Source: Gammaproteobacteria bacterium (lineage in GTDB: Bacteria; Pseudomonadota; Gammaproteobacteria; GCA-001735895). From it: a DNA stretch of 64,000 nt. Where the stretch lies: the NCBI GenBank assembly GCA_014382695.1, contig JACNJF010000106.1, forward strand, positions 15,520 to 79,519, given 5' to 3'. How positions within the stretch are numbered: the first letter of the stretch is position 1; each line of letters begins with the position of its first letter. Under the pieces are notes generated by a model. The model was given only the letters and a program-made list of their open reading frames with translations. It was not told where the DNA came from and did not search any database. Shown here piece by piece: positions 8,205 through 38,174 of the stretch. A program made the position numbers and the translations under genes.

Positions 8205-8522
8205 TCAGGCCATTTCGGTGAGATTTCCTTTCACGCGGTGACTTTTCATTTTTTCTTTATGCTTTTTCCCCTGTCGATCCAGTTTATCGACCATCCCGTC
8301 GATAGCTGCATACATATCTTCCTGTTCATCATCGGCATACATGTTACCGCCGCTGACATGCATGGTGGCTTCTGCCTTATGACGCATTTTCTCTACGGTT
8401 AAAACCACGTGAATATCAAGCGCCTGGTCAAAATGTCTGTCCAGTCTTTCAATTTTCTCATTGACGTAGTTTCTAAGAGAATCCGTGATGTCAACATGGT
8501 GACCGCTTAGACTTACTTGCAT
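8205..8522 (-). CDS. hpf: Ribosome hibernation promoting factor
   Basis: 105 aa; MQVSLSGHHVDITDSLRNYVNEKIERL is the sigma-54 modulation/HPF family N-terminus. It lies directly downstream of rpoN. Confidence 0.9.
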   Translation of the reverse strand: MQVSLSGHHVDITDSLRNYVNEKIERLDRHFDQALDIHVVLTVEKMRHKAEATMHVSGGNMYADDEQEDMYAAIDGMVDKLDRQGKKHKEKMKSHRVKGNLTEMA

Positions 8523-28383: not shown

Positions 28384-29010
28384 ATGTCAGCAGTAGCCAA
28401 TAGACGTTCTGTGATGACCTGTTTTTCATCACCGGTTGACCCTCAATGTCATCGAAGCCGTATCGTGTTAGCCGAAAAAGACATCACTGTAGAGATATAT
28501 GATGTGGATATGGATAATTTGCCCGAGGATCTTCTGGATCTAAATCCTTATGCCACGGTACCTACCATGGTGGATCGAGATCTGGTGTTATACGATGCGC
28601 GGGTACTTATTGAATATCTGGATGAGCGTTTTCCGCATCCCCCGCTGATGCCTGTTGATCCGGTTTCCCGGGCCAAGAGTCGCCTTGGTTTGTTCCGTAT
28701 TGAAAGTGACTGGTATAGCCTGTTGCCGGATATTGAACATGGTACCGAAAAGAAAAAAGCGCAGGCCAAGAAAGCATTAACCGAAAGTCTGATTAATTCG
28801 ATTGATGTTTTTGCGGCCATGCCTTATTTCCTGTCGGATGATTTCAGTCTGCTGGATTGCAGTATTGCCCCTATCCTGTGGCGCCTGCCTTATTATGAAA
28901 TCGAGTTACCAGCAACCTCTCGGCCGATAAAGGATTACATGAAGCGAGTATTCTCCAGACCATCGTTTCAGCATAGTTTGTCTGAACAGGAAAGGGATAT
29001 GGTCGAGTAA
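28384..29010 (+). CDS. sspA: Stringent starvation protein A (GST fold)
   Basis: 208 aa, near-collinear with E. coli SspA: RSVMT.FS...D...H..RIVLAEK..VP..VDR.L.L.....I.EYLDERFPHPPLMPV.PV.R...YFLSD.FSL.DC..AP.LWRLP. Confidence 0.9.
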   Translation: MSAVANRRSVMTCFSSPVDPQCHRSRIVLAEKDITVEIYDVDMDNLPEDLLDLNPYATVPTMVDRDLVLYDARVLIEYLDERFPHPPLMPVDPVSRAKSRLGLFRIESDWYSLLPDIEHGTEKKKAQAKKALTESLINSIDVFAAMPYFLSDDFSLLDCSIAPILWRLPYYEIELPATSRPIKDYMKRVFSRPSFQHSLSEQERDMVE

Positions 29011-29040: not shown

Positions 29041-29072
29041 ACCGGTATCATCCGTGATACCGGTTTTTTTTT
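29041..29072 (+). terminator. Rho-independent terminator after sspA
   Basis: ACCGGTATCA-TCCG-TGATACCGGT stem-loop followed by T9. Confidence 0.65.
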
Positions 29073-29334
29073 GGCCAGGGAAGGCCTTATACCCTGAAGC
29101 CCAGGGACGGGCGAGAAGGGTGTTTGGCCAGGGAGGGGGCCTTATACCCTGAAGCCCAGGGACGGGCGAGAAGGGTGTTTGGCCAGGGAAGGCCTTATAC
29201 CCTGAAGCCCAGGGACGGGCGAGAAGGGTGTTTGGCCAGGGAGGGCCTTATACCCTGAAGCCCAGGAGCCGATAAAAGCTCCAGGCATGATCGGCATTCA
29301 ACATCCCTGTCGTTCAAGGGCGAGAAGGGTGTTT
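29073..29334. repeat. Tandem array of 53-55 bp GC-rich direct repeats: 3 intact units plus 1 disrupted
   Basis: The unit GGCCAGGGAAGGCCTTATACCCTGAAGCCCAGGGACGGGCGAGAAGGGTGTTT occurs at 29073-29125, 29126-29180 (with a +GG variant), 29181-29233 and 29234-29266. The array then diverges and ends with GGGCGAGAAGGGTGTTT at 29318-29334. Each unit holds a CCCTG-AAGCC-CAGGG hairpin. There are no spacers, so it is not CRISPR-like. Confidence 0.9.
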
Positions 29335-29367
29335 ATTAATAAACTTGATGATATTCGCAGGCTTACA

Positions 29368-29766
29368 ATGATGACTTCTAATAAACCTTATCTGATAAGA
29401 GCGCTGTACGAATGGCTGGTCGATAACGATGCGACTCCCCACATTATGGTGGATACCACTAATGCCGAGGTGAAGATTCCGCGCGGCATCGATAAGGATG
29501 GTCAGGTGGTGCTGAATATTGCAGCGCGTGCGGTACAGCGGCTGGAGATGAGTAATACCTACGTTTCTTTTTCTGCGCGATTTAGCGGCGCATCGCAGAA
29601 TATCTATATTCCAATAGAAGCTGTGATGGCTATTTATAGTATGGAAGATGGCGAAGGCATGATGTTTGCCGGTGAATCAGCCAGTGCAGGAACATCCCGC
29701 ACGGAAGGTAAAGAGGCTGCCGATAAAAATAAAAAAAACCGGCCTGGATTAAAGGTGGTTAAGTAA
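29368..29766 (+). CDS. sspB: ClpXP adaptor / stringent starvation protein B
   Basis: Probable start is MMTSNKPYLIRALYEWLVDNDATPHIMVD, matching the E. coli SspB N-terminus RPYLLRAFYEWLLDN.LTPHLVVD, followed by an acidic tail and C-terminal LKVVK (E. coli ends ALRVVK). The ORF track start at 29287 is a TTG extension reading through the repeat array. Confidence 0.85.
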   Translation: MMTSNKPYLIRALYEWLVDNDATPHIMVDTTNAEVKIPRGIDKDGQVVLNIAARAVQRLEMSNTYVSFSARFSGASQNIYIPIEAVMAIYSMEDGEGMMFAGESASAGTSRTEGKEAADKNKKNRPGLKVVK

Positions 29767-29805
29767 ACGATGGGCTTTAGCGCATTGCAAGTTGAGCTCA
29801 GAAGT

Positions 29806-30192
29806 TTAATAAAAATCTGATGAGCTGGCTTCAAACGCGTTACGAATCCATTCATAGCGATATTCAGTGCCTGAAGTTCCAGGCTCGATCAATAGCGCAT
29901 CGAATCTATAGTTGCTGTGCTGGCAGGCTTTATGGGTGGCAATGAAGCTGAGAGCCGAGCGCGTGATCTTTTCCTGCTTGGAGCGGGGAATGCTGAAAGC
30001 GGTGCCGCCGAAGGCATTGTTTTTACGGTATTTGACTTCGATGAAGCATACGGTCGACGCATCCAGCATGATCAGATCAATTTCACCGAAGCGGCAGTTG
30101 AAATTCTGTTCAATCATTCGCAGTCCCTGCTGCTGTAACCAGTGCAGGGCTAACTGCTCAAAGTAATCGCCCTTTTCTCTGCCTCCCTGCAT
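29806..30192 (-). CDS. yraN: YraN-family (UPF0102) predicted endonuclease
   Basis: 128 aa with the GE.DLI......V.FIEVK.R core typical of UPF0102, located downstream of lpoA as in the E. coli locus. Confidence 0.8.
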   Translation of the reverse strand: MQGGREKGDYFEQLALHWLQQQGLRMIEQNFNCRFGEIDLIMLDASTVCFIEVKYRKNNAFGGTAFSIPRSKQEKITRSALSFIATHKACQHSNYRFDALLIEPGTSGTEYRYEWIRNAFEASSSDFY

Positions 30193-30200
30193 GTGAATAC

Positions 30201-32123
30201 TTACTTCACGCTCTCTACCGATTTCTTCAGCAATTCGGCCTGACCGTTGTTAAAGGTTGCTAACAGCAGTTCGCGATGCACTCTGCCGCTGGAATCAACC
30301 GTGATGGTACCGGTGTTGAGGTTGATTTTTTCTTCTGGATTGATCAGCAGGCGGCGTAGTGATGGGATCAGTTTGTAGGCATCGATGCCCAGAGCAAAAA
30401 AGCGTGAGTACTGTTCGCTTTGTTCCGGCCATAATTTTTTCACCGCAATGTAATCGCTATTTTCCTGTTGTTTGAGAGACCATGGCATATCGACGAACAG
30501 GGTCTCATTCAAGTCTCTATCGGCATCCTGATCGTTAACCCCACTGGAAATGCTGGACGTGGTATATACCGGTAGATCCTTGGCATGATGGAATTTAAGC
30601 TGGGGCTTGATCAGGCGCGCCTGACGTGGATTGCCTGCAATAAAGATCATGTCCACATCCTGACGCCGACGCGGGATAAACTCAGAGGTCTGCCCGGTGA
30701 TCTGATCCAGAATGGAGTGGCGGCGTTCGCTGCTGTTCAGGTTCAGCATCTGTTTGATCGTCGGTGAGTAATCGTTTTTGCTGGATGGGTAGGAAGCCCT
30801 CTCGACCACCTGTCCGCCAAGCTTTTCAAAGCGGCTGCTAAAGGCCTGCTGCAGACGTTGTCCCAGGGCGCTATCCGGGGTCAGCGTGACGGCATGGTAA
30901 TGCCCGTTGGTGAGCGCATAATCAGCAATCTGTTCGGCTTCATCTTCCGGTCTGAGACCGAACTGATACAGGTTCTTAACCGCCTTCAGTTCGTCATCGG
31001 CATAATTCAGGGTTAAGGTCGGCACCTCCAGTTTATGGTTTTGCTGGAGTTCATTGACCAGTTGTTTATCGAGAGGGCCGACGATAAAGTCGGCTCCATT
31101 TTGTATCGCCGCACGGTATTGCTGGAAAAATTGCGGTGCCTCACTGCTCACGTTGATGATTTCAAGCACGGGTTTGCTTTCTGGATCATTGTAATAGGCA
31201 TACAGAAAGCCGTTCTGAATCGCTTCCGATACGTTTTTCAGGTTATCGGTAAGCGGCAGTAACAGGGCTATCCGTAGTGGATCGATATAGATCAGCTTGC
31301 TTTCTTCGACCAGGCGATCGGCAAAGCTGATGGACGCTTCATGACCCAGATAAATTTCATGCCATTTTTTGATCCAGGGTTCTATCTTGGATGGCAGCAT
31401 GTCGGAGCGGCGTGCAATCAGATTCAGCTCCAGCCAGCCTCTGAGAGGCATGGTCTGTTGCTGGGCAAGTGCATTCAGGATATTCGGTTCGGTGATACGG
31501 TTAAGCGCATCCCAGATGAAGTCATAGTTTTCCTGTTTTTCAACATCACTTTCCAGATGCTGGCCAATCTCGATACGCAGTTTGGCGCTTTCCAGTGGTT
31601 TACCGATCGCCAGCACACCCCTGGAGCGGATATTCAGCGCGATCGCTTTGTAAATCGGATTGCTGATACTGTCCAGTTCGGGCAGATTGCCCAGGCTCTG
31701 ATAGGTTTTACCCTGTTCAAAATAGATCCCCGCCAGCAACACATTTTTATTGATCGCGTCCTGTTCGAGTAAATCGTTTTCTGCCAGGCCGTCATAAAAA
31801 GCGATGATCTCCGCGTTTTGCTGCAGACGGTACATCATCAGTGCGGTTTTCTGTAGATACAGGGAGCGTTCAGGCTGAGTGGTCTGCTCGCTCAGTTGGC
31901 GGAACATACTGGCGGCTTCGGCCCACTGGCGCTGCTGTTCGTAGTTTGCGCCAATAATCTTCGCTTCTACTGTGGCCTGTACGGTCATGTCGGGCTTGAT
32001 CACCGAGGTGGTGGTCTGACAGGCTGCCAGCAGTAACGCGGTTAGTGCAAACAGAGCGAAATGGGGTAACCCGGATAGGCGAAATTTAATCATGGCTAAA
32101 GTCAATATTCTGAACGAGCGCAA
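30201..32123 (-). CDS. lpoA: Penicillin-binding protein activator LpoA (outer-membrane lipoprotein)
   Basis: 640 aa with lipoprotein signal ...LLAACQ, an N-terminal TPR-like helical domain and a C-terminal periplasmic-binding-protein-like domain. Divergent from rsmI as in E. coli. Confidence 0.8.
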   Translation of the reverse strand: MRSFRILTLAMIKFRLSGLPHFALFALTALLLAACQTTTSVIKPDMTVQATVEAKIIGANYEQQRQWAEAASMFRQLSEQTTQPERSLYLQKTALMMYRLQQNAEIIAFYDGLAENDLLEQDAINKNVLLAGIYFEQGKTYQSLGNLPELDSISNPIYKAIALNIRSRGVLAIGKPLESAKLRIEIGQHLESDVEKQENYDFIWDALNRITEPNILNALAQQQTMPLRGWLELNLIARRSDMLPSKIEPWIKKWHEIYLGHEASISFADRLVEESKLIYIDPLRIALLLPLTDNLKNVSEAIQNGFLYAYYNDPESKPVLEIINVSSEAPQFFQQYRAAIQNGADFIVGPLDKQLVNELQQNHKLEVPTLTLNYADDELKAVKNLYQFGLRPEDEAEQIADYALTNGHYHAVTLTPDSALGQRLQQAFSSRFEKLGGQVVERASYPSSKNDYSPTIKQMLNLNSSERRHSILDQITGQTSEFIPRRRQDVDMIFIAGNPRQARLIKPQLKFHHAKDLPVYTTSSISSGVNDQDADRDLNETLFVDMPWSLKQQENSDYIAVKKLWPEQSEQYSRFFALGIDAYKLIPSLRRLLINPEEKINLNTGTITVDSSGRVHRELLLATFNNGQAELLKKSVESVK

Positions 32124-32174
32124 CGCTGGAGTCTGATAAAATAGGTCGCCTAGTTTACATGGATAAAGAATAAA

Positions 32175-33020
32175 ATGTCAGGCGTACTTTATATTGTAGC
32201 CACCCCGATCGGTAACCTTGATGATATCACTCTGCGCGCGATTGAGGTGCTCGGTAGTGTCGATCTGGTAGCGGCCGAAGATACCCGTCATAGCCAGCAT
32301 TTAATGGCGCATCTGGGGCTGCGCAAAAAGATGTTGTCGCTGCATGAGCACAATGAACAGGATCGAGTGAATCAGATCCTCGGATTGCTGGCGCAGGGCC
32401 AGCAGATTGCACTGGTTTCGGATGCTGGAACCCCGCTGATTTCGGATCCTGGCTTTCCGCTGGTCAGGGCGGTGATCGAAGCCGGATATAAGGTCACTCC
32501 GATACCGGGTGTCAGCAGCATCATCGCCGCGCTCAGTGCAGCTGGTCTGGCCACCGATTCGTTTAGCTATCATGGCTTTCTGGCGCATAAAAATGCAGAC
32601 CGGTTGACGCGTCTGCAGGCGCTGAAAAAAATCGGCGGTACGCATGTGCTGCTGGAGTCTACCCATCGTATCGAACGCCTGCTGGAGCAGATCGACGAAT
32701 TGATGCCCGCCTCCCAGCTGGTGCTGGCGAAAGAACTGACCAAGCGCCATGAGTCCTTTATCCGCGGTACGGCACAGCAATGTCTGCAGATCTTTAGCGA
32801 TGACCCGCTGCGAAAGAAGGGCGAGTTCGTGGTGCTGATGTATCATCCTGCACCCGAAGAGGACGAGTCGGTACGACTTAATGCACAGAAACTACTGCAA
32901 CTGCTGATGGCTGAAATGCCATTAAAAAAGGCCGTCAAACTAGCGGTTGAAATCAGCGGCGGCAAGAAAAATGAACTGTACCGACAGGCATTGCTGCTTA
33001 GCGAAAACGAGCAAACCTGA
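32175..33020 (+). CDS. rsmI: 16S rRNA (cytidine1402-2'-O)-methyltransferase RsmI
   Basis: 281 aa; MSGVLYIVATPIGNLDDITLRAIEVL is the tetrapyrrole-methylase-fold RsmI N-terminus. Confidence 0.9.
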   Translation: MSGVLYIVATPIGNLDDITLRAIEVLGSVDLVAAEDTRHSQHLMAHLGLRKKMLSLHEHNEQDRVNQILGLLAQGQQIALVSDAGTPLISDPGFPLVRAVIEAGYKVTPIPGVSSIIAALSAAGLATDSFSYHGFLAHKNADRLTRLQALKKIGGTHVLLESTHRIERLLEQIDELMPASQLVLAKELTKRHESFIRGTAQQCLQIFSDDPLRKKGEFVVLMYHPAPEEDESVRLNAQKLLQLLMAEMPLKKAVKLAVEISGGKKNELYRQALLLSENEQT

Positions 33021-33128
33021 GCCGGCCTGGACCTCCTCTTTGGCTGTAAGGTATTACGCCGTCCCCTTGTTTCAGGGGTGGTGAAACCCGGTGCTAATGG
33101 CATAGACTAGCGACTCCTGGACCCGAGC

Positions 33129-34019
33129 TTGAGATTCTTGAAAGGTTTATCTGCCCCCTTCAAACTGACTTTACCTGCGCTTCCACCTCGGCAGTCGATA
33201 CTGGCTTTACTGACACTGGTTTTTGTGCTTAATGCGCTGCTGATTTACTTCATGCTGGAGCAGCCGCGTTTTGGTATTTCGCTGCAACTGGTGGACGGTA
33301 AAATCTTTGCGACTGAAACCAGCCCGTCCTCCCTGGACGATCAGCAGGTGCCTCGTGAATTGACTGCGCTGGCTACTGCAGAATACCGGTTCGAGCTTGA
33401 AGCTGAAGATTTACTCGAAGAGCCCGATTTGCTGACCCGCTACAGTGAATATAACCGTTTCATGCAACGCCAGTCGATGCTGTTCGATTTACTGCAATAC
33501 CCTCGCGTCGAACTGTTCTGGGCAGATCAGGCTAGCTCTTCGTTGGCGCCGCGCAAAACCGTCTGGAGTGATTTACCCCTGATGTTCTGGTTTCAGTTGA
33601 TCGTTGCCAGTTTCAGTCTGCTAGTGGGGGCCGCTGTCTGGTTGTTCCGACAACGCGACCGTTCCGCACTACATTATTTTCTGATTGGCGTTTTCCTCGC
33701 GCTGGTCATCTTCCCCGCTGCCATCTATAGCAGCCGGGAACTGGCGCTGGATGGCGAACTGTTCAGGGTGTTATCGGTTGTTGATCATCTTGGGCTGTAC
33801 ATCGTGATGGCGGCCATTGTGTCGCTGGTGTGGTGCTATCCACAGCCTTTATGGACATTCCCGTTCCCGGCTTTGTTTTATTCGCTGATGTATCTGTGCT
33901 GGGTGGTGGATACCGTGCAGTGGTTTCCTGATCTCGATGTGAGCACCAGAATTGTTCCCCTGCTGATGCTCGTACTCGGTTTTGTACTGTTGATTGTGCA
34001 CTGGAAGCGATCTGCCTGA
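33129..34019 (+). CDS. Polytopic membrane protein, the probable N-terminal sensor module of the downstream kinase
   Basis: 296 aa with a TTG start, one N-terminal TM, a roughly 110-aa extracytoplasmic segment, then about five TM helices. It ends at a TGA that is in frame with, and one codon upstream of, the TTG start of the next ORF. Confidence 0.5.
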   Translation: MRFLKGLSAPFKLTLPALPPRQSILALLTLVFVLNALLIYFMLEQPRFGISLQLVDGKIFATETSPSSLDDQQVPRELTALATAEYRFELEAEDLLEEPDLLTRYSEYNRFMQRQSMLFDLLQYPRVELFWADQASSSLAPRKTVWSDLPLMFWFQLIVASFSLLVGAAVWLFRQRDRSALHYFLIGVFLALVIFPAAIYSSRELALDGELFRVLSVVDHLGLYIVMAAIVSLVWCYPQPLWTFPFPALFYSLMYLCWVVDTVQWFPDLDVSTRIVPLLMLVLGFVLLIVHWKRSA

Positions 34020-34022
34020 AAT

Positions 34023-35318
34023 TTGCTCTACCGTCAGTCGATCAAATGGTTCCTGCTGGTTATAGTCGCTGGCAGTGGCTTGTTTGTAGGGGTGGTTTTT
34101 GTGCCACCGTTATTCGGGTCCGCGCCGCTGATTTCTCAGGGACTCGCTTTTGTCGCTTTCCTCAGTATTTACCTGAGTCTGGCCATCGGTGTCATCCGTT
34201 ACCAGCTGTTCGAGCTGGATCGCTGGTGGTTCAAGGTGTGGATCTGGATTGCAGTCGGCATCATACTGATTGGTTTTGATATTCTATTCATTTCGCTGCT
34301 GAACCTGTCTCAGGACCAATCCCTCTGGCTGGCACTGGGTATTACCGGCTGGCTTTACTTTCCACTACGCCAGTGGCTGCTTACCCGGTTTCTTTCGATC
34401 CGCGACAGTTCTCTTGAGAGTTATCTACCGATGGTTGTTCGCAGTATTGCACAGGCCAGAACGGCTGATGATCTGCTGGCTGGAAACCGCGCCTGTCTGG
34501 TAACGATCTTTTCACCATTGTCGACGTTGATGAGGGATGAGCTCGATCCGCTGGTGGCTATCTATGAAAACGGACTCAGTCTGCATGTACCGTTCCCGCG
34601 TTCCAGCCAGACCCTGTTTCTAAAATGTCCGGGACAGGGCCGTCAGTTATTTCAATCTGCCGATGTGGAGATTGTGCAGGCATTAATGAATCTGTTCGAA
34701 CAGGCCTATATCGCGCGCGAAGCCAGAGACGATGCGATTCGTCAGGAGCGGGAACGCATCAAGCAGGATATGCACGATACGCTGGGCGGGCGTCTGTTAT
34801 CGATTATGCGCCAGAATACAGAGCCGGAAAGCGCGCTGATTGCGACTTCCGCCTGGCGTGAATTACGCGACATTCTGACCGCTCTGGAAGGTAAAAAAGC
34901 GCCACTGATGCATGTTATTGATCAATGGCATAAGGATGCACGACAGCAGGCGGAACAGTCAAAGGTTGCTCTGGAATGGTTAATAGAGAATGAATTGCGC
35001 GATAAGTGCTGGGTGATCGATGGAAATCAACGACTCAATCTGGGCCAGATTCTACGCGAATCCCTGACCAACGCGCTGCGCCACTCTAACACCAGGCGGA
35101 TTAAGGTAGCGTTTAGCGCCGACCAGCATGAACTGGTTCTGAGCGTGAATAACGATGGCGTGAATGCGCCTCCTGCAACCTGGGTAGCAGGTCGTGGCCT
35201 GCATCATATTCGCAAACGCGCACACAAGCTGGATGCTTCGCTCGAATGGAATATGCAGGGAAATAACGCGGTTGAATTGAGCTTGAGGCTGACAATGAGG
35301 GAAGAGTGTAATGGATAA
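34023..35318 (+). CDS. Sensor histidine kinase, HisKA_3/NarX-type (multi-TM N-terminus)
   Basis: 431 aa with a TTG start and four N-terminal TM helices. The H-box is ERERIKQDMHDTLGGRL (HisKA_3) and the HATPase_c N-box region is LRESLTNALRHSN. The stop overlaps the regulator start by 8 nt. Confidence 0.75.
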   Translation: MLYRQSIKWFLLVIVAGSGLFVGVVFVPPLFGSAPLISQGLAFVAFLSIYLSLAIGVIRYQLFELDRWWFKVWIWIAVGIILIGFDILFISLLNLSQDQSLWLALGITGWLYFPLRQWLLTRFLSIRDSSLESYLPMVVRSIAQARTADDLLAGNRACLVTIFSPLSTLMRDELDPLVAIYENGLSLHVPFPRSSQTLFLKCPGQGRQLFQSADVEIVQALMNLFEQAYIAREARDDAIRQERERIKQDMHDTLGGRLLSIMRQNTEPESALIATSAWRELRDILTALEGKKAPLMHVIDQWHKDARQQAEQSKVALEWLIENELRDKCWVIDGNQRLNLGQILRESLTNALRHSNTRRIKVAFSADQHELVLSVNNDGVNAPPATWVAGRGLHHIRKRAHKLDASLEWNMQGNNAVELSLRLTMREECNG

Positions 35319-35937
35319 AATATTAGTAGTTGAAGATCAGACTGAAATACGTGCCTGGATTATCCGATTTGTGGCAGAGGTGTTTACCCACGCCCGCTTT
35401 GTGGAGGCCGTTAGCGTGGAGCAGGCGCGGCAGTATATCGATAGCTCGATCGATCTGTTATTGGTCGATCTAAGTCTGCCGGATGGTAGAGGGGATGAAT
35501 TAATCCGGCTTTTCAAGCATATCAATCCCGATGTTCCGTGTGTGGTGATTTCGAGTTTTGAGGACGATGATTTTTTGTTTCCTGCGCTCAAGGCTGGCGC
35601 CGATGGTTATCTATTGAAGGATCAGACAGAAGAGGAACTAAAGTCGCTGTTGATGGGCATTGTCAATGGGAAGCCCCCACTTTCGCCGGCAATCGCTTAT
35701 CGTCTGTTTGATTTTTTTCGGAAACCGGCCGATGACGAGACAGAGGTGAAACTGACCGACAGAGAAAAGGAAACGCTGCGACTGATCGCAAAGGGTTATA
35801 GCGTCAAGGAGTGCGCACGCAAGATGGAAATAAGTCCACATACCGTGGCGGGTTACATCAAGGAAGTGTACCGCAAACTGCAGGTCAATTCGCGCGCTGA
35901 GGTCGCGCTGGAAGCTGCGCGCCTGGGATTGAACTGA
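35311..35937 (+). CDS. Two-component response regulator, NarL/FixJ (LuxR HTH) family
   Basis: 208 aa with a receiver domain (MDKILVVEDQ..., acceptor Asp in LLLVDLSLPDG, conserved K in LLKD) and a C-terminal LuxR-type HTH (TDREKETLRLIAKGYSVKECARKMEISPHTVAGYIKEVYRKL). Confidence 0.85.
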   Translation: MDKILVVEDQTEIRAWIIRFVAEVFTHARFVEAVSVEQARQYIDSSIDLLLVDLSLPDGRGDELIRLFKHINPDVPCVVISSFEDDDFLFPALKAGADGYLLKDQTEEELKSLLMGIVNGKPPLSPAIAYRLFDFFRKPADDETEVKLTDREKETLRLIAKGYSVKECARKMEISPHTVAGYIKEVYRKLQVNSRAEVALEAARLGLN

Positions 35938-35963
35938 GTCGATCCAGCATACAGAATTCGCCT

Positions 35964-35985
35964 GTACCCCTGATTCAAGGGGTAC
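35964..35985. promoter_or_regulatory. Perfect 8-bp-arm palindrome GTACCCCT-GATTCA-AGGGGTAC between the regulator gene and the lipoprotein gene
   Basis: Inverted repeat read directly, lying upstream of a TATATAAT -10 (about 36017-36024) and GAGGTGG RBS of the 36042 gene. A related CCCCT-TGTTTC-AGGGG hairpin is at 33064-33079, upstream of the sensor gene. It could be a terminator or an operator. Confidence 0.4.
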
Positions 35986-36041
35986 ATTCCTGTTCCAGAC
36001 GGGTTTAGATTAAGTGCTTCTATATAATCTGAGGTGGCGAC

Positions 36042-37523
36042 ATGAAGTTAATCCAATCCAGTTTTGTCAAACTATTTATTCTGCTGATGGCAGGTTTTAT
36101 ATTATCGGCCTGCGGAGGATCGGACAACGACGACGCTCCAGCCAATACTACAGCGACCCTGAGTGGCACTGCAGCGGTGGGAGCGGCTCTGGCCAGTCGA
36201 CAGGTGACTATAGTCGATAAGAGTGGTGCATCAGTCACCACTACGACGGATGCGAATGGTAAATACAGTGTAACGGTAACGGTATCGGCAAAACCATTTA
36301 TGCTTAAGGTGGAAACCGATGGTGAACCGTTGTATTCGTTTGCAGCGGAAGCAGGTATCAGCAATATAACGCCTCTGACCAATCTGGCGCTGCACGAAGC
36401 GAACAGGAATGGCAGTACCTATACGCCTTTAAGTAGTCTGTTTAGTTCGTTTAAGGATTCATATGCCGGAATTACCGAAACCAGGCTGAATGAAGCGAAA
36501 GCAAAAGTGAATGCCAATCTGGCCAGTGTCTATTCCAGCGCCGGCGTGGCTAATGGTTTTGATTTTTTTAAAACCGCTTTTAATGCGGACGGTAGTGGTA
36601 TCGATCAGGTGCTGGATAATGCGGGTATCAGCATCGACAGTAGTGACCCGGGTATTATCACTATCAATGTTACCGGGGCTTCTGCATTTTCTTTCAACCC
36701 CGGTATAGATTTCAGTCAGTTTGTGGTTGGCGGTGGAGCGGGCAGCGGTGGCGACATCGGGACACTGCCTTCCTATGTGGCTAGTCAGGTTGTGGACATG
36801 GAATTCTGTTGTGCGGCGGCAGGTGCCCCCTATAGTAACGGCGAGGTCGTTAAATTCACTTTCAGCGGTAGCGGTATGCTGTTTCTGACCGAGTCGTTTA
36901 CCGTTGTGGCGCCAACCTTTACCGATAACAGTAGTGCGACGCCTGGACCTTATATATGGGATAACGGAACCTATAAATATGAGCTGTCGGTACTGAATAA
37001 TGCGATTCATGAAGTGAATGTGTTTGCCTCTACAGCGGGTACCTTCCTCGGCCAGTTTACCCCGGTTACGGGTAATGGTGGTGGCAGCACTACTGGCGCG
37101 CCGGAAATTCCGGCGGGAGAGTTCGGGCTGGCATTTAAGCTGGATGGCGTGGTAACTCAGAGAACCACAGCAACCCCAACCTTACCCGGTATTGCACTGG
37201 CCATCACAGGCCTGGGCACTGAACGCTATCTGGCTTTTCTGGGAACCGGTGTTACCGATCAGTTAAGAATGATCCCGATCAATACCACGGGAACCTATAC
37301 CTGTGGAGCGGGCCCGAATTCATTCCGCCTGGTCGAAATGTGGCTCAGCCTGCCTGGATCGCATAAAGCCGATGCGAGCAAAGGAAGCTGCACCATTAGC
37401 GTCACTTCCGTCGGTAGTGTGTATGCAGGAACGTTCTCCGGCACCGTTATTAGTGATAGTGACGGTGTGACTGCGGTTTCAATTACTGAAGGTGTTTTCA
37501 GGGTGGACGGATCTTCTTTGTAA
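36042..37523 (+). CDS. Secreted lipoprotein of unknown function (N-terminal Ig-like/CarboxypepD_reg-like segment)
   Basis: 493 aa with signal peptide and lipobox (FILSAC), a TTDANGKYSVTVTV motif typical of CarboxypepD_reg/Ig-like beta-sandwiches, and a Gly/Thr/Ser-rich, non-membrane remainder. Confidence 0.6.
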   Translation: MKLIQSSFVKLFILLMAGFILSACGGSDNDDAPANTTATLSGTAAVGAALASRQVTIVDKSGASVTTTTDANGKYSVTVTVSAKPFMLKVETDGEPLYSFAAEAGISNITPLTNLALHEANRNGSTYTPLSSLFSSFKDSYAGITETRLNEAKAKVNANLASVYSSAGVANGFDFFKTAFNADGSGIDQVLDNAGISIDSSDPGIITINVTGASAFSFNPGIDFSQFVVGGGAGSGGDIGTLPSYVASQVVDMEFCCAAAGAPYSNGEVVKFTFSGSGMLFLTESFTVVAPTFTDNSSATPGPYIWDNGTYKYELSVLNNAIHEVNVFASTAGTFLGQFTPVTGNGGGSTTGAPEIPAGEFGLAFKLDGVVTQRTTATPTLPGIALAITGLGTERYLAFLGTGVTDQLRMIPINTTGTYTCGAGPNSFRLVEMWLSLPGSHKADASKGSCTISVTSVGSVYAGTFSGTVISDSDGVTAVSITEGVFRVDGSSL

Positions 37524-37544
37524 ATAAAAAATACTGATTTTTAA

Positions 37545-37570
37545 AGTCCGCGTAATGCGGGCTTTTTTTT
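37545..37570 (+). terminator. Rho-independent terminator after the lipoprotein gene
   Basis: CCGC-GTAAT-GCGG GC-rich stem followed by T8 (GCGGGCTTTTTTTT). Confidence 0.55.
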
Positions 37571-37597
37571 GCCCCCAATTCAGGTATCATGCGCGCC

Positions 37598-37941
37598 AAG
37601 TCAGCTGGATAATCGCTGGCACCGTCAGGTGCTGGAGGAAAGTCCGGGCTCCACAGGGCAGGGTGCCAGGTAACGCCTGGGAGGCGCGAGCCTACGGAAA
37701 GTGCCACAGAAAATATACCGCCGGACAGCTTGCTGGACGGTAAGGGTGAAATGGTGCGGTAAGAGCGCACCGCGCGACTGGCAACAGTCGTGGCAGGGAA
37801 AACCCCACCCGGAGCAAGACCAAATAGGAGAGCTATGGTGCTGCCCGCACTGCTTTCGGGTTGGTTGCATGAGGGTCCTGGTGACAGGGCTCCCAGATGA
37901 ATGATTATCCTCGACAGAACCCGGCTTACAGGCTGACTTAT
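37598..37941 (+). ncRNA. rnpB: RNase P RNA (bacterial type A, M1 RNA)
   Basis: GGAGGAAAGTCCGGGCTCCACAGGGCAGGGTGCCAGGTAACGCCTGGG, GGTAAGGGTGAAATGGTGCGGTAAGAGCGCACC, CCACCCGGAGCAAGACCAAATAGG and a 3' ACAGAACCCGGCTTA are near-identical to the conserved cores of E. coli M1 RNA. The P1 arms AGUCAGC / GCUGACU pair. All ORFs called across this interval are non-coding. Confidence 0.93.
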
Positions 37942-38174
37942 CTAAATTCCACCTTTCCCGTCTGCTCATTTTTTACCCTGAGCGGCGGGAAAATGTGGTA
38001 ACCCATGTTAATTTTTTCAGAATTTTCCCCGTTACATTAGTAGTACTTAATATTTCACTTTAACTATGCCTGTTTAATATATGTTTTTAAATGGGATTGC
38101 CCGTTCGTCATAAAAAAGTTTGCTAAGTCCTTGTTGTTATTAAAGAAATTCTATTCTGCCAAGTGGTTTTTTAC

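What the first reader, a model, noticed from the sequence alone, without database searches (positions are those of the whole stretch)
33129..35318. Membrane sensor histidine kinase interrupted by a single in-frame TGA (fission, pseudogene or recoding)
Seen in sequence: ORF 33129..34019 (N-terminal TM, about 110 extracytoplasmic residues, about 5 TM helices) and ORF 34023..35318 (4 TM helices, a cytoplasmic region, HisKA_3 H-box ERERIKQDMHDT, HATPase_c) are in the same reading frame. They are separated only by TGA plus one codon (AAT). The second ORF has no ATG and must start at the TTG immediately after the stop. Read through, they would give a single roughly 730-aa polytopic sensor kinase (about 10 TM helices). 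Inference: this is a recently disrupted kinase (nonsense mutation), a true gene fission with re-initiation (a GGAAG lies about 15 nt upstream of the TTG), or a sequencing error. The tight 8-nt overlap of the kinase stop with the regulator start argues the downstream part is still under selection.
Basis: seen in the sequence. Interest (0 to 1): 0.55.

Follow-up and report, generated by a model that had tools for sequence, protein, structure and literature searches.

The report
Recent nonsense mutation in sensor kinase
One G-to-T change has put a stop codon in the middle of a membrane sensor kinase gene of an uncultured gammaproteobacterium, and because the intact version still occurs in other samples, this is an ordinary, very young broken or crippled gene, not recoding, a conserved gene split or a sequencing error.

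Summary
Two same-frame ORFs (33138..34019 and 34023..35318) are separated only by TGA (34017-19) and AAT, and together they encode one 726-aa sensor kinase with 10 TM helices.

It is a real single-base nonsense polymorphism.
- A Logan contig (SRR29139947, 8362 nt) is identical to the window except 34017 T>G, which gives GGA (Gly) and an intact 726-aa protein (P0068, also listed from FLOH01).
- The TGA allele is found in 20 other fetched loci (some re-fetches of one contig) from at least 13 runs or assemblies, all 99.97-100% identical. That rules out a sequencing error.
- The two nearest orthologues have GGG (Gly) at this codon.
- 45 of 46 genome loci of relatives, and nearly all of 617 family representatives, encode a single uninterrupted kinase of about 700-750 aa. 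The split is therefore not conserved.
- TGA ends 21 of 56 ORFs in the window, there is no SECIS-like fold, and the homologous residue is Gly. Recoding is therefore excluded.

The TTG "start" is a Leu codon already present in the intact allele, and the 8-nt kinase/regulator overlap is ancestral. Neither shows selection. No other substitution exists in the kinase, so dN/dS has no power.

The most likely reading is a very young null or hypomorphic allele. A functional split by reinitiation, or leaky UGA read-through, is possible but untested. Interest is low.

The parts
33138..34019 (+). N-terminal fragment of the sensor kinase (293 aa, TTG start; another in-frame TTG lies at 33129). It holds TM1, a periplasmic beta-rich domain of about 110 residues, and TM2-TM6.
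   Evidence: P0067 is the exact sequence, called on 22 contigs; the AF2 model of this half alone has pLDDT 93.3 and pTM 0.88; the TTG start is conserved in the orthologues.
34017..34019 (+). Premature stop TGA at codon 294. It is derived from GGA (Gly) by a G>T change at 34017 and lies in the short cytoplasmic loop between TM6 and TM7 (VHWKRSA*NLLYRQSIK).
   Evidence: L005 differs from the window only at 34017 (T>G). GGA in the intact allele, GGG in both outgroups; the loop has 4 K+R and 0 D+E; the break falls in a 4-residue loop between helices 269-294 and 299-323.
34023..35318 (+). C-terminal fragment ORF (431 codons from TTG). It holds TM7-TM10, a cytoplasmic alpha/beta linker domain, the HisKA_3 DHp domain with the phospho-acceptor His546 (CAC 34773-34775), and HATPase_c.
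   Evidence: P0003; the core matches DesK.
34087..34103 (+). Internal Shine-Dalgarno-like TAGGGGTGG (34087-34095) followed by GTG 34101. This is the start that the Prodigal-type callers used for a 405-aa product lacking TM7. It is also present in the intact allele, so it was not created after the stop.
   Evidence: -9.7 kcal/mol at spacing 5, stronger than about 95% of 45 reference genes. P0069, 405 aa.
35311..35937 (+). Cognate NarL/LuxR-type response regulator (Response_reg + GerE). Its ATG overlaps the kinase stop by 8 nt.
   Evidence: the overlap is conserved in L002 and L003; a homologous regulator is found within the fetched flanks (about 6 kb) in 39 of 46 loci of relatives.
33063..33078 (+). 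Hairpin CCCCTTGTTTCAGGGG between rsmI and the kinase. It is probably the rsmI terminator and the upstream boundary of the kinase-regulator unit.
35963..35986 (+). Terminator-like hairpin TGTACCCCTGATTCAAGGGGTACA after the regulator. It marks the downstream boundary of the unit.

Best explanation
The TGA at 34017-34019 is a real and evolutionarily very recent G>T nonsense mutation (Gly294 GGA to stop). It lies in a single-copy gene for a 726-aa sensor histidine kinase with 10 TM helices and a HisKA_3 core, and it is segregating in a nearly clonal natural population of an uncultured gammaproteobacterium.

Shown:
- The ancestral, intact allele still exists and differs by this one base.
- The stop allele is the one found in most public assemblies.
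- No orthologue is split.
- TGA is an ordinary stop codon in this genome.

Inferred:
- Translation ends after TM6, which separates the sensor module (TM1, periplasmic domain, TM2-6) from TM7-10 and the catalytic core. The allele is therefore most likely a null or strongly hypomorphic allele of the kinase, or a 'signal-blind' one if the C half is still made.
- Its wide occurrence suggests that losing this two-component input is tolerated, or even favoured, in the sampled habitats.
- Any residual kinase would come from unselected side routes: termination-reinitiation at the TTG 3 nt downstream, internal initiation at GTG 34101, or a few per cent UGA read-through by tRNA-Trp.
For: Intact allele:
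- The cluster of the C half contains an intact 726-aa protein, P0068, identical to the window's read-through product with Gly at the stop.
- Its contig L005 matches the window at 8361 of 8362 bases. The one difference is 34017 T>G.

Stop allele:
- TGA is present in 20 of the 21 fetched loci of this species (some are re-fetches of the same contig), from at least 13 runs or assemblies. These are two NCBI MAGs, ERZ24794656, ERZ24794671, five ERR133196xx/ERR13319542 runs, ERR6496061/ERZ23492479, ERZ23492938, SRR19040528 and SRR29139953.
- Three flanking haplotypes carry it, with SNPs at 29719/30639 and 32321.

Orthologues:
- The outgroup codon is GGG (Gly) in L002 and L003.
- 62 of 66 homologues are 688-754 aa and cover 84-100% of the fused query.
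- 45 of 46 genome loci have one uninterrupted ORF across the junction.
- There are 617 family representatives. Most of the best 150 are 690-770 aa, and the short ones end at scattered positions.

No sign of adaptation or recoding:
- TGA ends 21 of 56 ORFs in the window.
- There is no significant RNA structure after the stop (z = -0.85).
- TTG 34023 is a Leu codon in the intact allele too, and its SD is weak.
Against: - Nothing here measures function.
- The stop allele is seen in far more assemblies than the intact one. That is also what a harmless or beneficial functional split would look like.
- The break is at a benign place. It is a short cytoplasmic loop, so each fragment keeps a self-consistent topology (N-in, C-in), and the N half is predicted to fold confidently on its own.
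- A start codon sits only 3 nt after the stop. At that distance termination-reinitiation can work in E. coli (at +2 nt only 5-70% of efficiency is lost; PMC10666635).
- UGA read-through of 2-4% is documented in E. coli K-12 reporters (PMC10570021) and might be enough for a low-abundance kinase.
- The allele counts come from assemblies, not reads, and several runs belong to the same projects.
Confidence: 0.72

Rival explanations
1. Nascent functional gene fission. After termination at TGA, ribosomes reinitiate at TTG 34023, 3 nt downstream. The 293-aa sensor module and the 431-aa 4-TM kinase insert separately, re-associate in the membrane, and signal normally or nearly so. On this reading the allele is neutral or favoured, and it is a gene split caught at its origin.
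For: - The break lies in a short cytoplasmic loop with positive charges on both sides, so each fragment has a self-consistent topology.
- The N half alone gives a very confident compact model (pLDDT 93.3).
- Reinitiation at +2 nt retains 30-95% efficiency in E. coli gene pairs (PMC10666635).
- The stop allele is found in most assemblies.
Against: - No orthologue or family member is split at this position.
- TTG is a weak start and has only a poor, badly spaced SD (-3.3 kcal/mol).
- TTG 34023 and GTG 34101 were both already present in the intact allele, so nothing has adapted to the split.
- No sequence divergence has occurred since the mutation, so there is no evidence of selection on either half.
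Confidence: 0.13
2. Leaky stop. Near-cognate tRNA-Trp reads the UGA at a level of a few per cent, giving a full-length G294W kinase in a tolerant loop. The allele would then be a low-expression hypomorph and not a null.
For: - UGA read-through of about 2% (37 C) to 4% (25 C) was measured in E. coli K-12 reporters and depends on competition between tRNA-Trp and RF2 (PMC10570021).
- The stop is followed by A. From my own recollection, not checked here, this context has been reported as permissive for UGA suppression.
- The affected residue sits in a short loop.
- The kinase is in any case expressed from a weak TTG start.
Against: - There is no stimulatory structure downstream.
- The stop is not conserved in any relative.
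- Read-through levels in this organism are unknown. E. coli K-12 is unusually leaky because of its RF2 variant (own knowledge).
- Gly is 90% or more conserved at this position among the 11 closest homologues (G294), so Trp may not be neutral.
Confidence: 0.12
3. Sequencing or assembly artefact at 34017.
For: G>T is a typical oxidative-damage error type (own knowledge). The window comes from a metagenome-assembled genome.
Against: The same base is found in 20 other fetched loci assembled by different pipelines (NCBI submitters, ENA, Logan) from at least 13 runs. These include a contig with 110x coverage and loci with different flanking SNPs.
Confidence: 0.01
4. Programmed recoding of UGA, either as selenocysteine or through a reassigned genetic code (UGA = Trp or Gly).
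For: The homologous residue is Gly, and UGA = Gly exists in code 25 (own knowledge). This is a coincidence only.
Against: - TGA terminates 21 of 56 ORFs in the window, including rsmI and the response regulator next door.
- The fold after the UGA is no better than shuffled sequence (z = -0.85).
- No homologue has Cys or a stop here.
- The downstream sequence is identical in the GGA allele.
- The window holds no tRNA gene.
Confidence: 0.01

Closest known systems
Nonsense-mutation null alleles or young pseudogenes of two-component sensor kinases segregating within a bacterial species. Examples often cited, from my own knowledge and not checked here, are gacS in Pseudomonas, covS in group A Streptococcus and agrC in Staphylococcus aureus.
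   Same: A single-base premature stop lies in the sensor kinase while the cognate regulator stays intact. Wild-type and mutant alleles coexist in the population. There are no further lesions.
   Different: This case is seen only in metagenome assemblies of an uncultured gammaproteobacterium. The phenotype, the signal and the regulon are unknown. In public assemblies the stop allele is the commoner one.
HisKA_3-type (DesK / NarX / NarQ / LiaS / UhpB class) histidine kinases paired with NarL/LuxR-type response regulators.
   Same: - H-box ERERIKQDMHDTLGG with invariant His546, and N and G boxes.
- Pfam HisKA_3 and HATPase_c match across the family.
- The best structural matches of the model are DesK cytoplasmic cores.
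- NCBIfam's best partial matches are UhpB, NarQ, NarX and LiaS, all far below their cut-offs.
- The adjacent regulator has REC + GerE domains.
   Different: The sensor region of about 500 residues (TM1, periplasmic beta domain, 9 more TM helices, a small cytoplasmic alpha/beta domain) matches no Pfam or NCBIfam family. The protein is not a member of any named equivalog.
Translationally coupled gene pairs that use termination-reinitiation (PMC10666635, PMC6728339).
   Same: The stop codon and a potential start codon are only 3 nt apart, a distance at which reinitiation can still be efficient.
   Different: Native coupled pairs mostly overlap by 4 or 1 nt, and in the E. coli constructs tested a Shine-Dalgarno motif precedes the start. 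Here the 'start' is a pre-existing internal Leu TTG with a weak, badly spaced SD, and the arrangement is not conserved in any relative.
Spontaneous UGA read-through by tRNA-Trp (PMC10570021).
   Same: It involves a UGA stop, where a few per cent read-through is documented in E. coli K-12.
   Different: Nothing indicates that read-through is programmed. There is no conserved stop, no downstream structure, and no extension-specific conservation beyond that of the ancestral gene.

Membership tests
Young pseudogene or null allele caused by a nonsense mutation | An in-frame stop inside an ORF that is otherwise conserved along its whole length | tested here: met
   Both halves align end to end with 726-aa P0001 (72% identity) and with 20 other homologues.
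Young pseudogene or null allele caused by a nonsense mutation | An intact allele or orthologues with a sense codon at the same position | tested here: met
   The conspecific contig L005 has GGA with 8361 of 8362 bases identical, and L002 and L003 have GGG; 45 of 46 genome loci are uninterrupted.
Young pseudogene or null allele caused by a nonsense mutation | The stop is real and not a read or assembly error | tested here: met
   TGA is in 20 of the 21 fetched loci of this species, from at least 13 runs or assemblies. Raw reads could not be inspected.
Young pseudogene or null allele caused by a nonsense mutation | Loss or reduction of function of the product | not testable with these tools
   This needs expression and signalling assays. 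Sequence decay cannot be used, because no other substitution has occurred in the gene.
Conserved gene fission (a kinase made of two polypeptides) | The split is shared by orthologues or recurs in the family | tested here: not met
   No relative is split at this loop. Short family members end at scattered positions, typical of contig-end fragments.
Conserved gene fission (a kinase made of two polypeptides) | An independent start codon and ribosome-binding site evolved for the downstream half | tested here: not met
   TTG 34023 is a Leu codon already present in the intact allele, with a weak SD (-3.3 kcal/mol at spacing 11). GTG 34101 with its strong SD also predates the stop.
Conserved gene fission (a kinase made of two polypeptides) | Purifying selection on both halves after the split | not testable with these tools
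   There is no divergence in the kinase among the 20 TGA loci fetched, so dN/dS has no power.
Selenoprotein (UGA = Sec) | A SECIS hairpin just downstream of the UGA, and Cys or Sec at the homologous position | tested here: not met
   MFE -21.2 kcal/mol against a shuffle mean of -18.8, z = -0.85; the homologues have Gly.
Reassigned genetic code (UGA as a sense codon, tables 4 and 25) | UGA is not used as a terminator in the genome | tested here: not met
   TGA ends 21 of 56 confident ORFs; rsmI and the response regulator end with TGA.
HisKA_3 / HATPase_c sensor histidine kinase (DesK/NarX class) | A DHp domain with the H-box histidine, and a Bergerat-fold ATPase domain with N and G boxes | tested here: met
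   HisKA_3 at 21.2 bits and HATPase_c at 25.5 bits, both just under Pfam's cut-offs; 36 and 35 of 40 family members match; invariant H546, N645, G687. Foldseek's best matches are DesK cores at E about 1e-8.
HisKA_3 / HATPase_c sensor histidine kinase (DesK/NarX class) | An adjacent cognate NarL/LuxR-type response regulator | tested here: met
   (REC + GerE; NarL is the best partial match); a homologous regulator is found within the fetched flanks (about 6 kb) in 39 of 46 loci of relatives.
HisKA_3 / HATPase_c sensor histidine kinase (DesK/NarX class) | Autophosphorylation and phosphotransfer activity | not testable with these tools
   This needs a biochemical assay.

The most novel reading that the evidence does not exclude
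The stop allele is not a dead gene but a gene fission caught at its birth. Termination-reinitiation at the TTG 3 nt after the UGA, or initiation at the strong SD + GTG 34101, would yield a separate 4-TM (or 3-TM) kinase. That kinase would either work with the free 6-TM sensor module or signal constitutively without it. This rewired allele would have spread through the population because it is advantageous, while the ancestral fused allele persists at low frequency.
Probability: 0.1. Interest if true: 0.5.

Novelty: new member of a known kind. Interest (0 to 1): 0.2.

Why it matters
Mostly it matters for annotation. The two 'hypothetical proteins' deposited for these MAGs (H8E21_07775 and H8E21_07780) are the halves of one sensor kinase interrupted by a nonsense SNP, and they should be annotated as a disrupted gene or allele.

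It is also a clean natural example of both states of a gene inactivation, intact and stopped, differing by one base in an otherwise identical background. The stop allele is seen in most public assemblies. If read-level allele frequencies across the samples correlated with habitat or time, the case could serve as a small study of adaptive or neutral loss of a two-component input in an uncultured bacterium.

The kinase belongs to a sizeable family (617 cluster representatives). Its sensor region of about 500 residues, with a periplasmic domain and 10 TM helices, has no Pfam or NCBIfam model.

Tried and rejected
- **Sequencing error:** rejected, because the same TGA occurs in many independent assemblies.
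- **Selenocysteine or an alternative genetic code:** rejected.
- **Conserved fission:** rejected.
- **dN/dS of the halves:** not possible, since no other substitution exists in the kinase among the conspecific contigs. The nearest orthologues are 72% and 64% identical, too far to say anything about events after the mutation.
- **Exact 45-mer scan of JGI metagenomes, with N at the mutated base, to count alleles:** 0 hits.
- **Genome-contig scan with the single protein:** no relative found. The first alignment was too diverse to yield search patterns. An 11-sequence alignment worked, but the species itself is not among the representative genomes searched.
- **Literature searches for the accessions, to learn the habitat** (JADHTY, GCA_016784805, SRR29139947, ERR13319542, FLOH01, HENK22 and others): nothing relevant.
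- **Rho-polarity guess from C>G skew downstream of the stop:** no marked C-rich, G-poor stretch, so uninformative.
- **PDZ idea for the periplasmic domain:** some members carry a GxxVxxVxxxSPAAxAGLxxGD-like motif, but no Pfam PDZ hit at E <= 0.01 in 40 members. This is left as a lead.
- **Other same-frame ORF pairs in the window:** all are ordinary neighbouring genes with their own ATG starts.
Full report
**1. The observation**

An ORF ends with TGA at 34017-34019, one codon (AAT) follows, and TTG at 34023 opens a 431-codon ORF in the same frame that ends at 35318. A response-regulator gene (35311..35937; Response_reg + GerE) overlaps the kinase end by 8 nt.

There are four small corrections.
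- The upstream ORF most likely starts at TTG 33138 (MKGLSAP...), not 33129. Gene callers use that start, and it aligns with the TTG starts of the two closest orthologues.
It gives only weak anti-SD pairing at a usable spacing: -3.3 kcal/mol, against a median of -5.8 for 45 genes of the window.
- The topology is 6 + 4 TM helices.
- The Pfam matches to HisKA_3 and HATPase_c fall just under the curated cut-offs for this sequence, but they recur in 36 and 35 of 40 family members.

No other same-frame ORF pair in the window has this character. The others are ordinary neighbouring genes with their own ATG starts.

**2. What the gene is**

A search with the read-through product returned 66 homologues. 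Of these, 62 are single proteins of 688-754 aa covering 84-100% of the fused query. The best are P0001 (726 aa, 72% identity) and P0002 (725 aa, 64%).

In the alignment the stop falls on a Gly in the motif HW(K/R)(K/R)SxG..Y(R/Q)QS(I/V)KWF. The AlphaFold model (pLDDT 79) and a hydropathy and charge analysis agree on this layout:
- a short cytoplasmic N-terminus and TM1
- a periplasmic beta-rich domain of about 110 residues
- TM2-TM6
- a very short, positively charged cytoplasmic loop (VHWKRSAGNLLYRQSIK; 4 K+R, 0 D+E), which is where the stop lies
- TM7-TM10
- a small cytoplasmic alpha/beta domain
- a DHp helix pair with the invariant His546 (CAC 34773-34775)
- the ATPase domain

The catalytic core resembles DesK most closely (Foldseek). 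NCBIfam gives only partial, far-sub-threshold matches to UhpB, NarQ, NarX and LiaS. The first 500 or so residues match no Pfam or NCBIfam model.

The N half alone finds 617 cluster representatives (E <= 1e-3) among 1.84 billion. Most of the best 150 are 690-770 aa and carry this module at their N-terminus. This is therefore a sizeable, unnamed family of HisKA_3 kinases, found in Gammaproteobacteria, Burkholderiales and Myxococcota. A homologous NarL-type regulator lies within the fetched flanks (about 6 kb) in 39 of 46 loci.

**3. The decisive evidence: both alleles exist**

The 90%-identity cluster of the C-terminal half contains these members:
- the exact 431-aa product (P0003, two NCBI MAGs)
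- the exact 293-aa N half (P0067)
- a 405-aa version of the C half called from GTG 34101 (P0069)
- an intact 726-aa protein (P0068, listed from FLOH01 and found on a Logan contig), identical to the window's read-through product with Gly at the stop

The contig carrying P0068 (L005, SRR29139947, 8362 nt) matches window 29216..37577 at every base except 34017, where it has G in place of T, giving GGA in place of TGA.

The TGA allele is in every other conspecific locus fetched, 20 of 21 (some are re-fetches of the same contig). These come from two NCBI MAGs (the window's own and GCA_016784805.1), ERZ24794656 (a 202-kb contig at 110x coverage), ERZ24794671, ERR13319542/637/652/669/672, ERR6496061/ERZ23492479, ERZ23492938, SRR19040528 and SRR29139953. 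These contigs are 99.97-100% identical to the window.
- A few carry their own flanking SNPs: 29719 and 30639 in GCA_016784805.1, 32321 in ERZ23492938, and 36324 in ERZ24794671.
- The stop allele therefore sits on several slightly different backgrounds and was assembled by different pipelines.
- SRR29139953 (TGA) and SRR29139947 (GGA) have accession numbers six apart. I infer, without proof, that they belong to the same study.

Both outgroup orthologues have GGG (Gly) at the site. The most parsimonious history is GGG/GGA (Gly) to TGA by a single G>T transversion.

**4. What this excludes**

*Sequencing or assembly error* is excluded by recurrence across runs, pipelines and haplotypes.

*A reassigned code or selenocysteine* is excluded on five grounds.
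- TGA ends 21 of 56 confident ORFs in the window, including both neighbours of the kinase.
- The RNA downstream of the stop folds no better than shuffled sequence (z = -0.85).
- The homologous residue is Gly, not Cys.
- The downstream sequence is identical in the GGA allele.
- The window holds no tRNA gene.

*A conserved fission* is excluded on two grounds.
- 45 of 46 genome loci of relatives have one uninterrupted ORF across the junction, and the remaining one is cut by its contig end.
- The minority of short family members end at scattered positions, as contig-end fragments do.

**5.

The kinase, the regulator and, apart from one substitution at a contig end, the downstream 493-aa lipoprotein gene are identical in all TGA contigs and in the GGA contig. 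No substitutions exist from which to compute dN/dS. The mutation is simply too young.

The 8-nt kinase/regulator overlap (ATGGATAA) is ancestral. It is present in L002, L003 and L004, where the kinase is intact, so it says nothing about selection after the stop arose.

The TTG at 34023 is a Leu codon already present in the intact allele (Ala GCT in the outgroups). The strong SD-like TAGGGGTGG + GTG at 34087-34103, which explains the 405-aa gene calls, is ordinary coding sequence for G-V-V-F-V and is shared by both alleles. Nothing has adapted to the split.

**6. Most likely mechanism**

Shown: translation of the kinase in the TGA allele must end after TM6 unless the stop is bypassed.

Inferred: the product is a 293-aa membrane fragment lacking the transmitter, so the allele is most likely a null or strong hypomorph of this sensor. 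Because it appears in most assemblies, losing this input is probably tolerated, or even favoured, where these samples were taken.

Three unselected routes could leave residual activity.
- *Termination-reinitiation at TTG 34023, 3 nt after the stop.* In E. coli, reinitiation at +2 nt retains 30-95% of the native efficiency and is nearly lost at +38 nt (PMC10666635). Here, though, the start is TTG and the SD is poor.
- *SD-driven internal initiation at GTG 34101.* This would give a kinase lacking TM7.
- *UGA read-through by tRNA-Trp.* This runs at about 2-4% in E. coli K-12 reporters (PMC10570021).

The break sits in a short cytoplasmic loop, each fragment keeps a self-consistent N-in/C-in topology, and the N half is predicted to fold confidently alone (pLDDT 93.3, pTM 0.88). 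A functional two-piece kinase is therefore physically plausible. This is the most novel reading the data leave open, and I give it about 10%.

A truncated kinase without its sensor could also be constitutively on or off. A look at C/G skew downstream of the stop gave no clear Rho-loading region, so polarity on the regulator cannot be predicted either way.

**7. Comparison with what is known, and verdict**

In kind, this is a premature-stop allele of a two-component sensor kinase coexisting with the wild type in a population. That is a familiar phenomenon. The kinase is an ordinary HisKA_3/NarL-type system with an uncharacterised sensor region of 10 TM helices plus a periplasmic domain. It does not qualify as programmed read-through, selenoprotein recoding, code reassignment or a conserved gene fission, because each was tested and a defining feature failed.

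Of its interpretations, 'recent nonsense mutation' is right and 'sequencing error' is wrong. 'Fission with reinitiation' is unsupported as an evolved state but not excluded as a physiological by-product.

Interest is low (0.2). The value lies in correcting the annotation and in a tidy natural example of a gene inactivation caught with both alleles present.

The organism's habitat could not be established. Literature searches for the accessions found nothing, the JGI metagenome scan found no exact match, and the species is not among the representative genomes searched.

Noticed in passing
window 29070-29266: A tandem repeat of a 53-bp unit, 3.7 copies at 95% identity, lies in the spacer between the GST-fold gene (sspA-like, 28384..29010) and the sspB-like gene (29287..29766). 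One assembly (L006) has a 2-nt insertion at 29242, and several independent contigs end at 29213-29216, so the array seems variable or hard to assemble.
   Followed up: partly
window 37597-37944 (+): A bacterial class A RNase P RNA (Rfam RF00010, 348 bits, full length) lies just downstream of the 493-aa lipoprotein gene. The ORFs listed on both strands there are shadows of it.
   Followed up: yes
window 33063-33078 and 35967-35982: Two similar palindromic hairpins (CCCCTTGTTTCAGGGG and CCCCTGATTCAAGGGG, with similar CGCC..GT flanks) bracket the kinase-regulator pair. These are the only 2 matches in the window against 0.18 expected, but the pattern was chosen after seeing them. They may simply be terminators, or a short repeated element.
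   Followed up: partly
window 34087-34103: A strong Shine-Dalgarno-like TAGGGGTGG sits 5 nt before an in-frame GTG, inside the coding region for TM7/TM8 of the kinase (-9.7 kcal/mol, stronger than about 95% of real gene starts in the window). It is present in the intact allele too. It explains why Prodigal-type callers report a 405-aa C half.
   Followed up: partly
[not shown]
   Followed up: partly
window 36042-37523 (+): A 493-aa predicted lipoprotein (signal peptide ending LSAC, no Pfam family) follows the kinase-regulator pair in the window. A gene of the same size and position (494 and 500 aa) follows it in the two closest orthologous loci, with sequence similarity confirmed for L016 (59% over residues 9-228). 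Partial similarity appears near the kinase in four more distant loci (a Thiohalomonadaceae MAG, Thiomicrospira, Thiomicrorhabdus, Catenovulum). It is a candidate target or partner of the system.
   Followed up: partly
window 32342-32345, 32544, 37042, 37577 (contig ends of L008-L014): Independent short-read assemblies of this organism break at the same few positions: inside rsmI, inside the 493-aa gene, and just before the RNase P RNA. This suggests strain-level variation or shared sequence with other community members at those points.
   Followed up: no
window 33138; L002 699; L003 8001: The kinase's own start codon is TTG, without an obvious Shine-Dalgarno site, in this species and in both nearest orthologues. 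This is a conserved weak start, consistent with a low-abundance sensor.
   Followed up: partly
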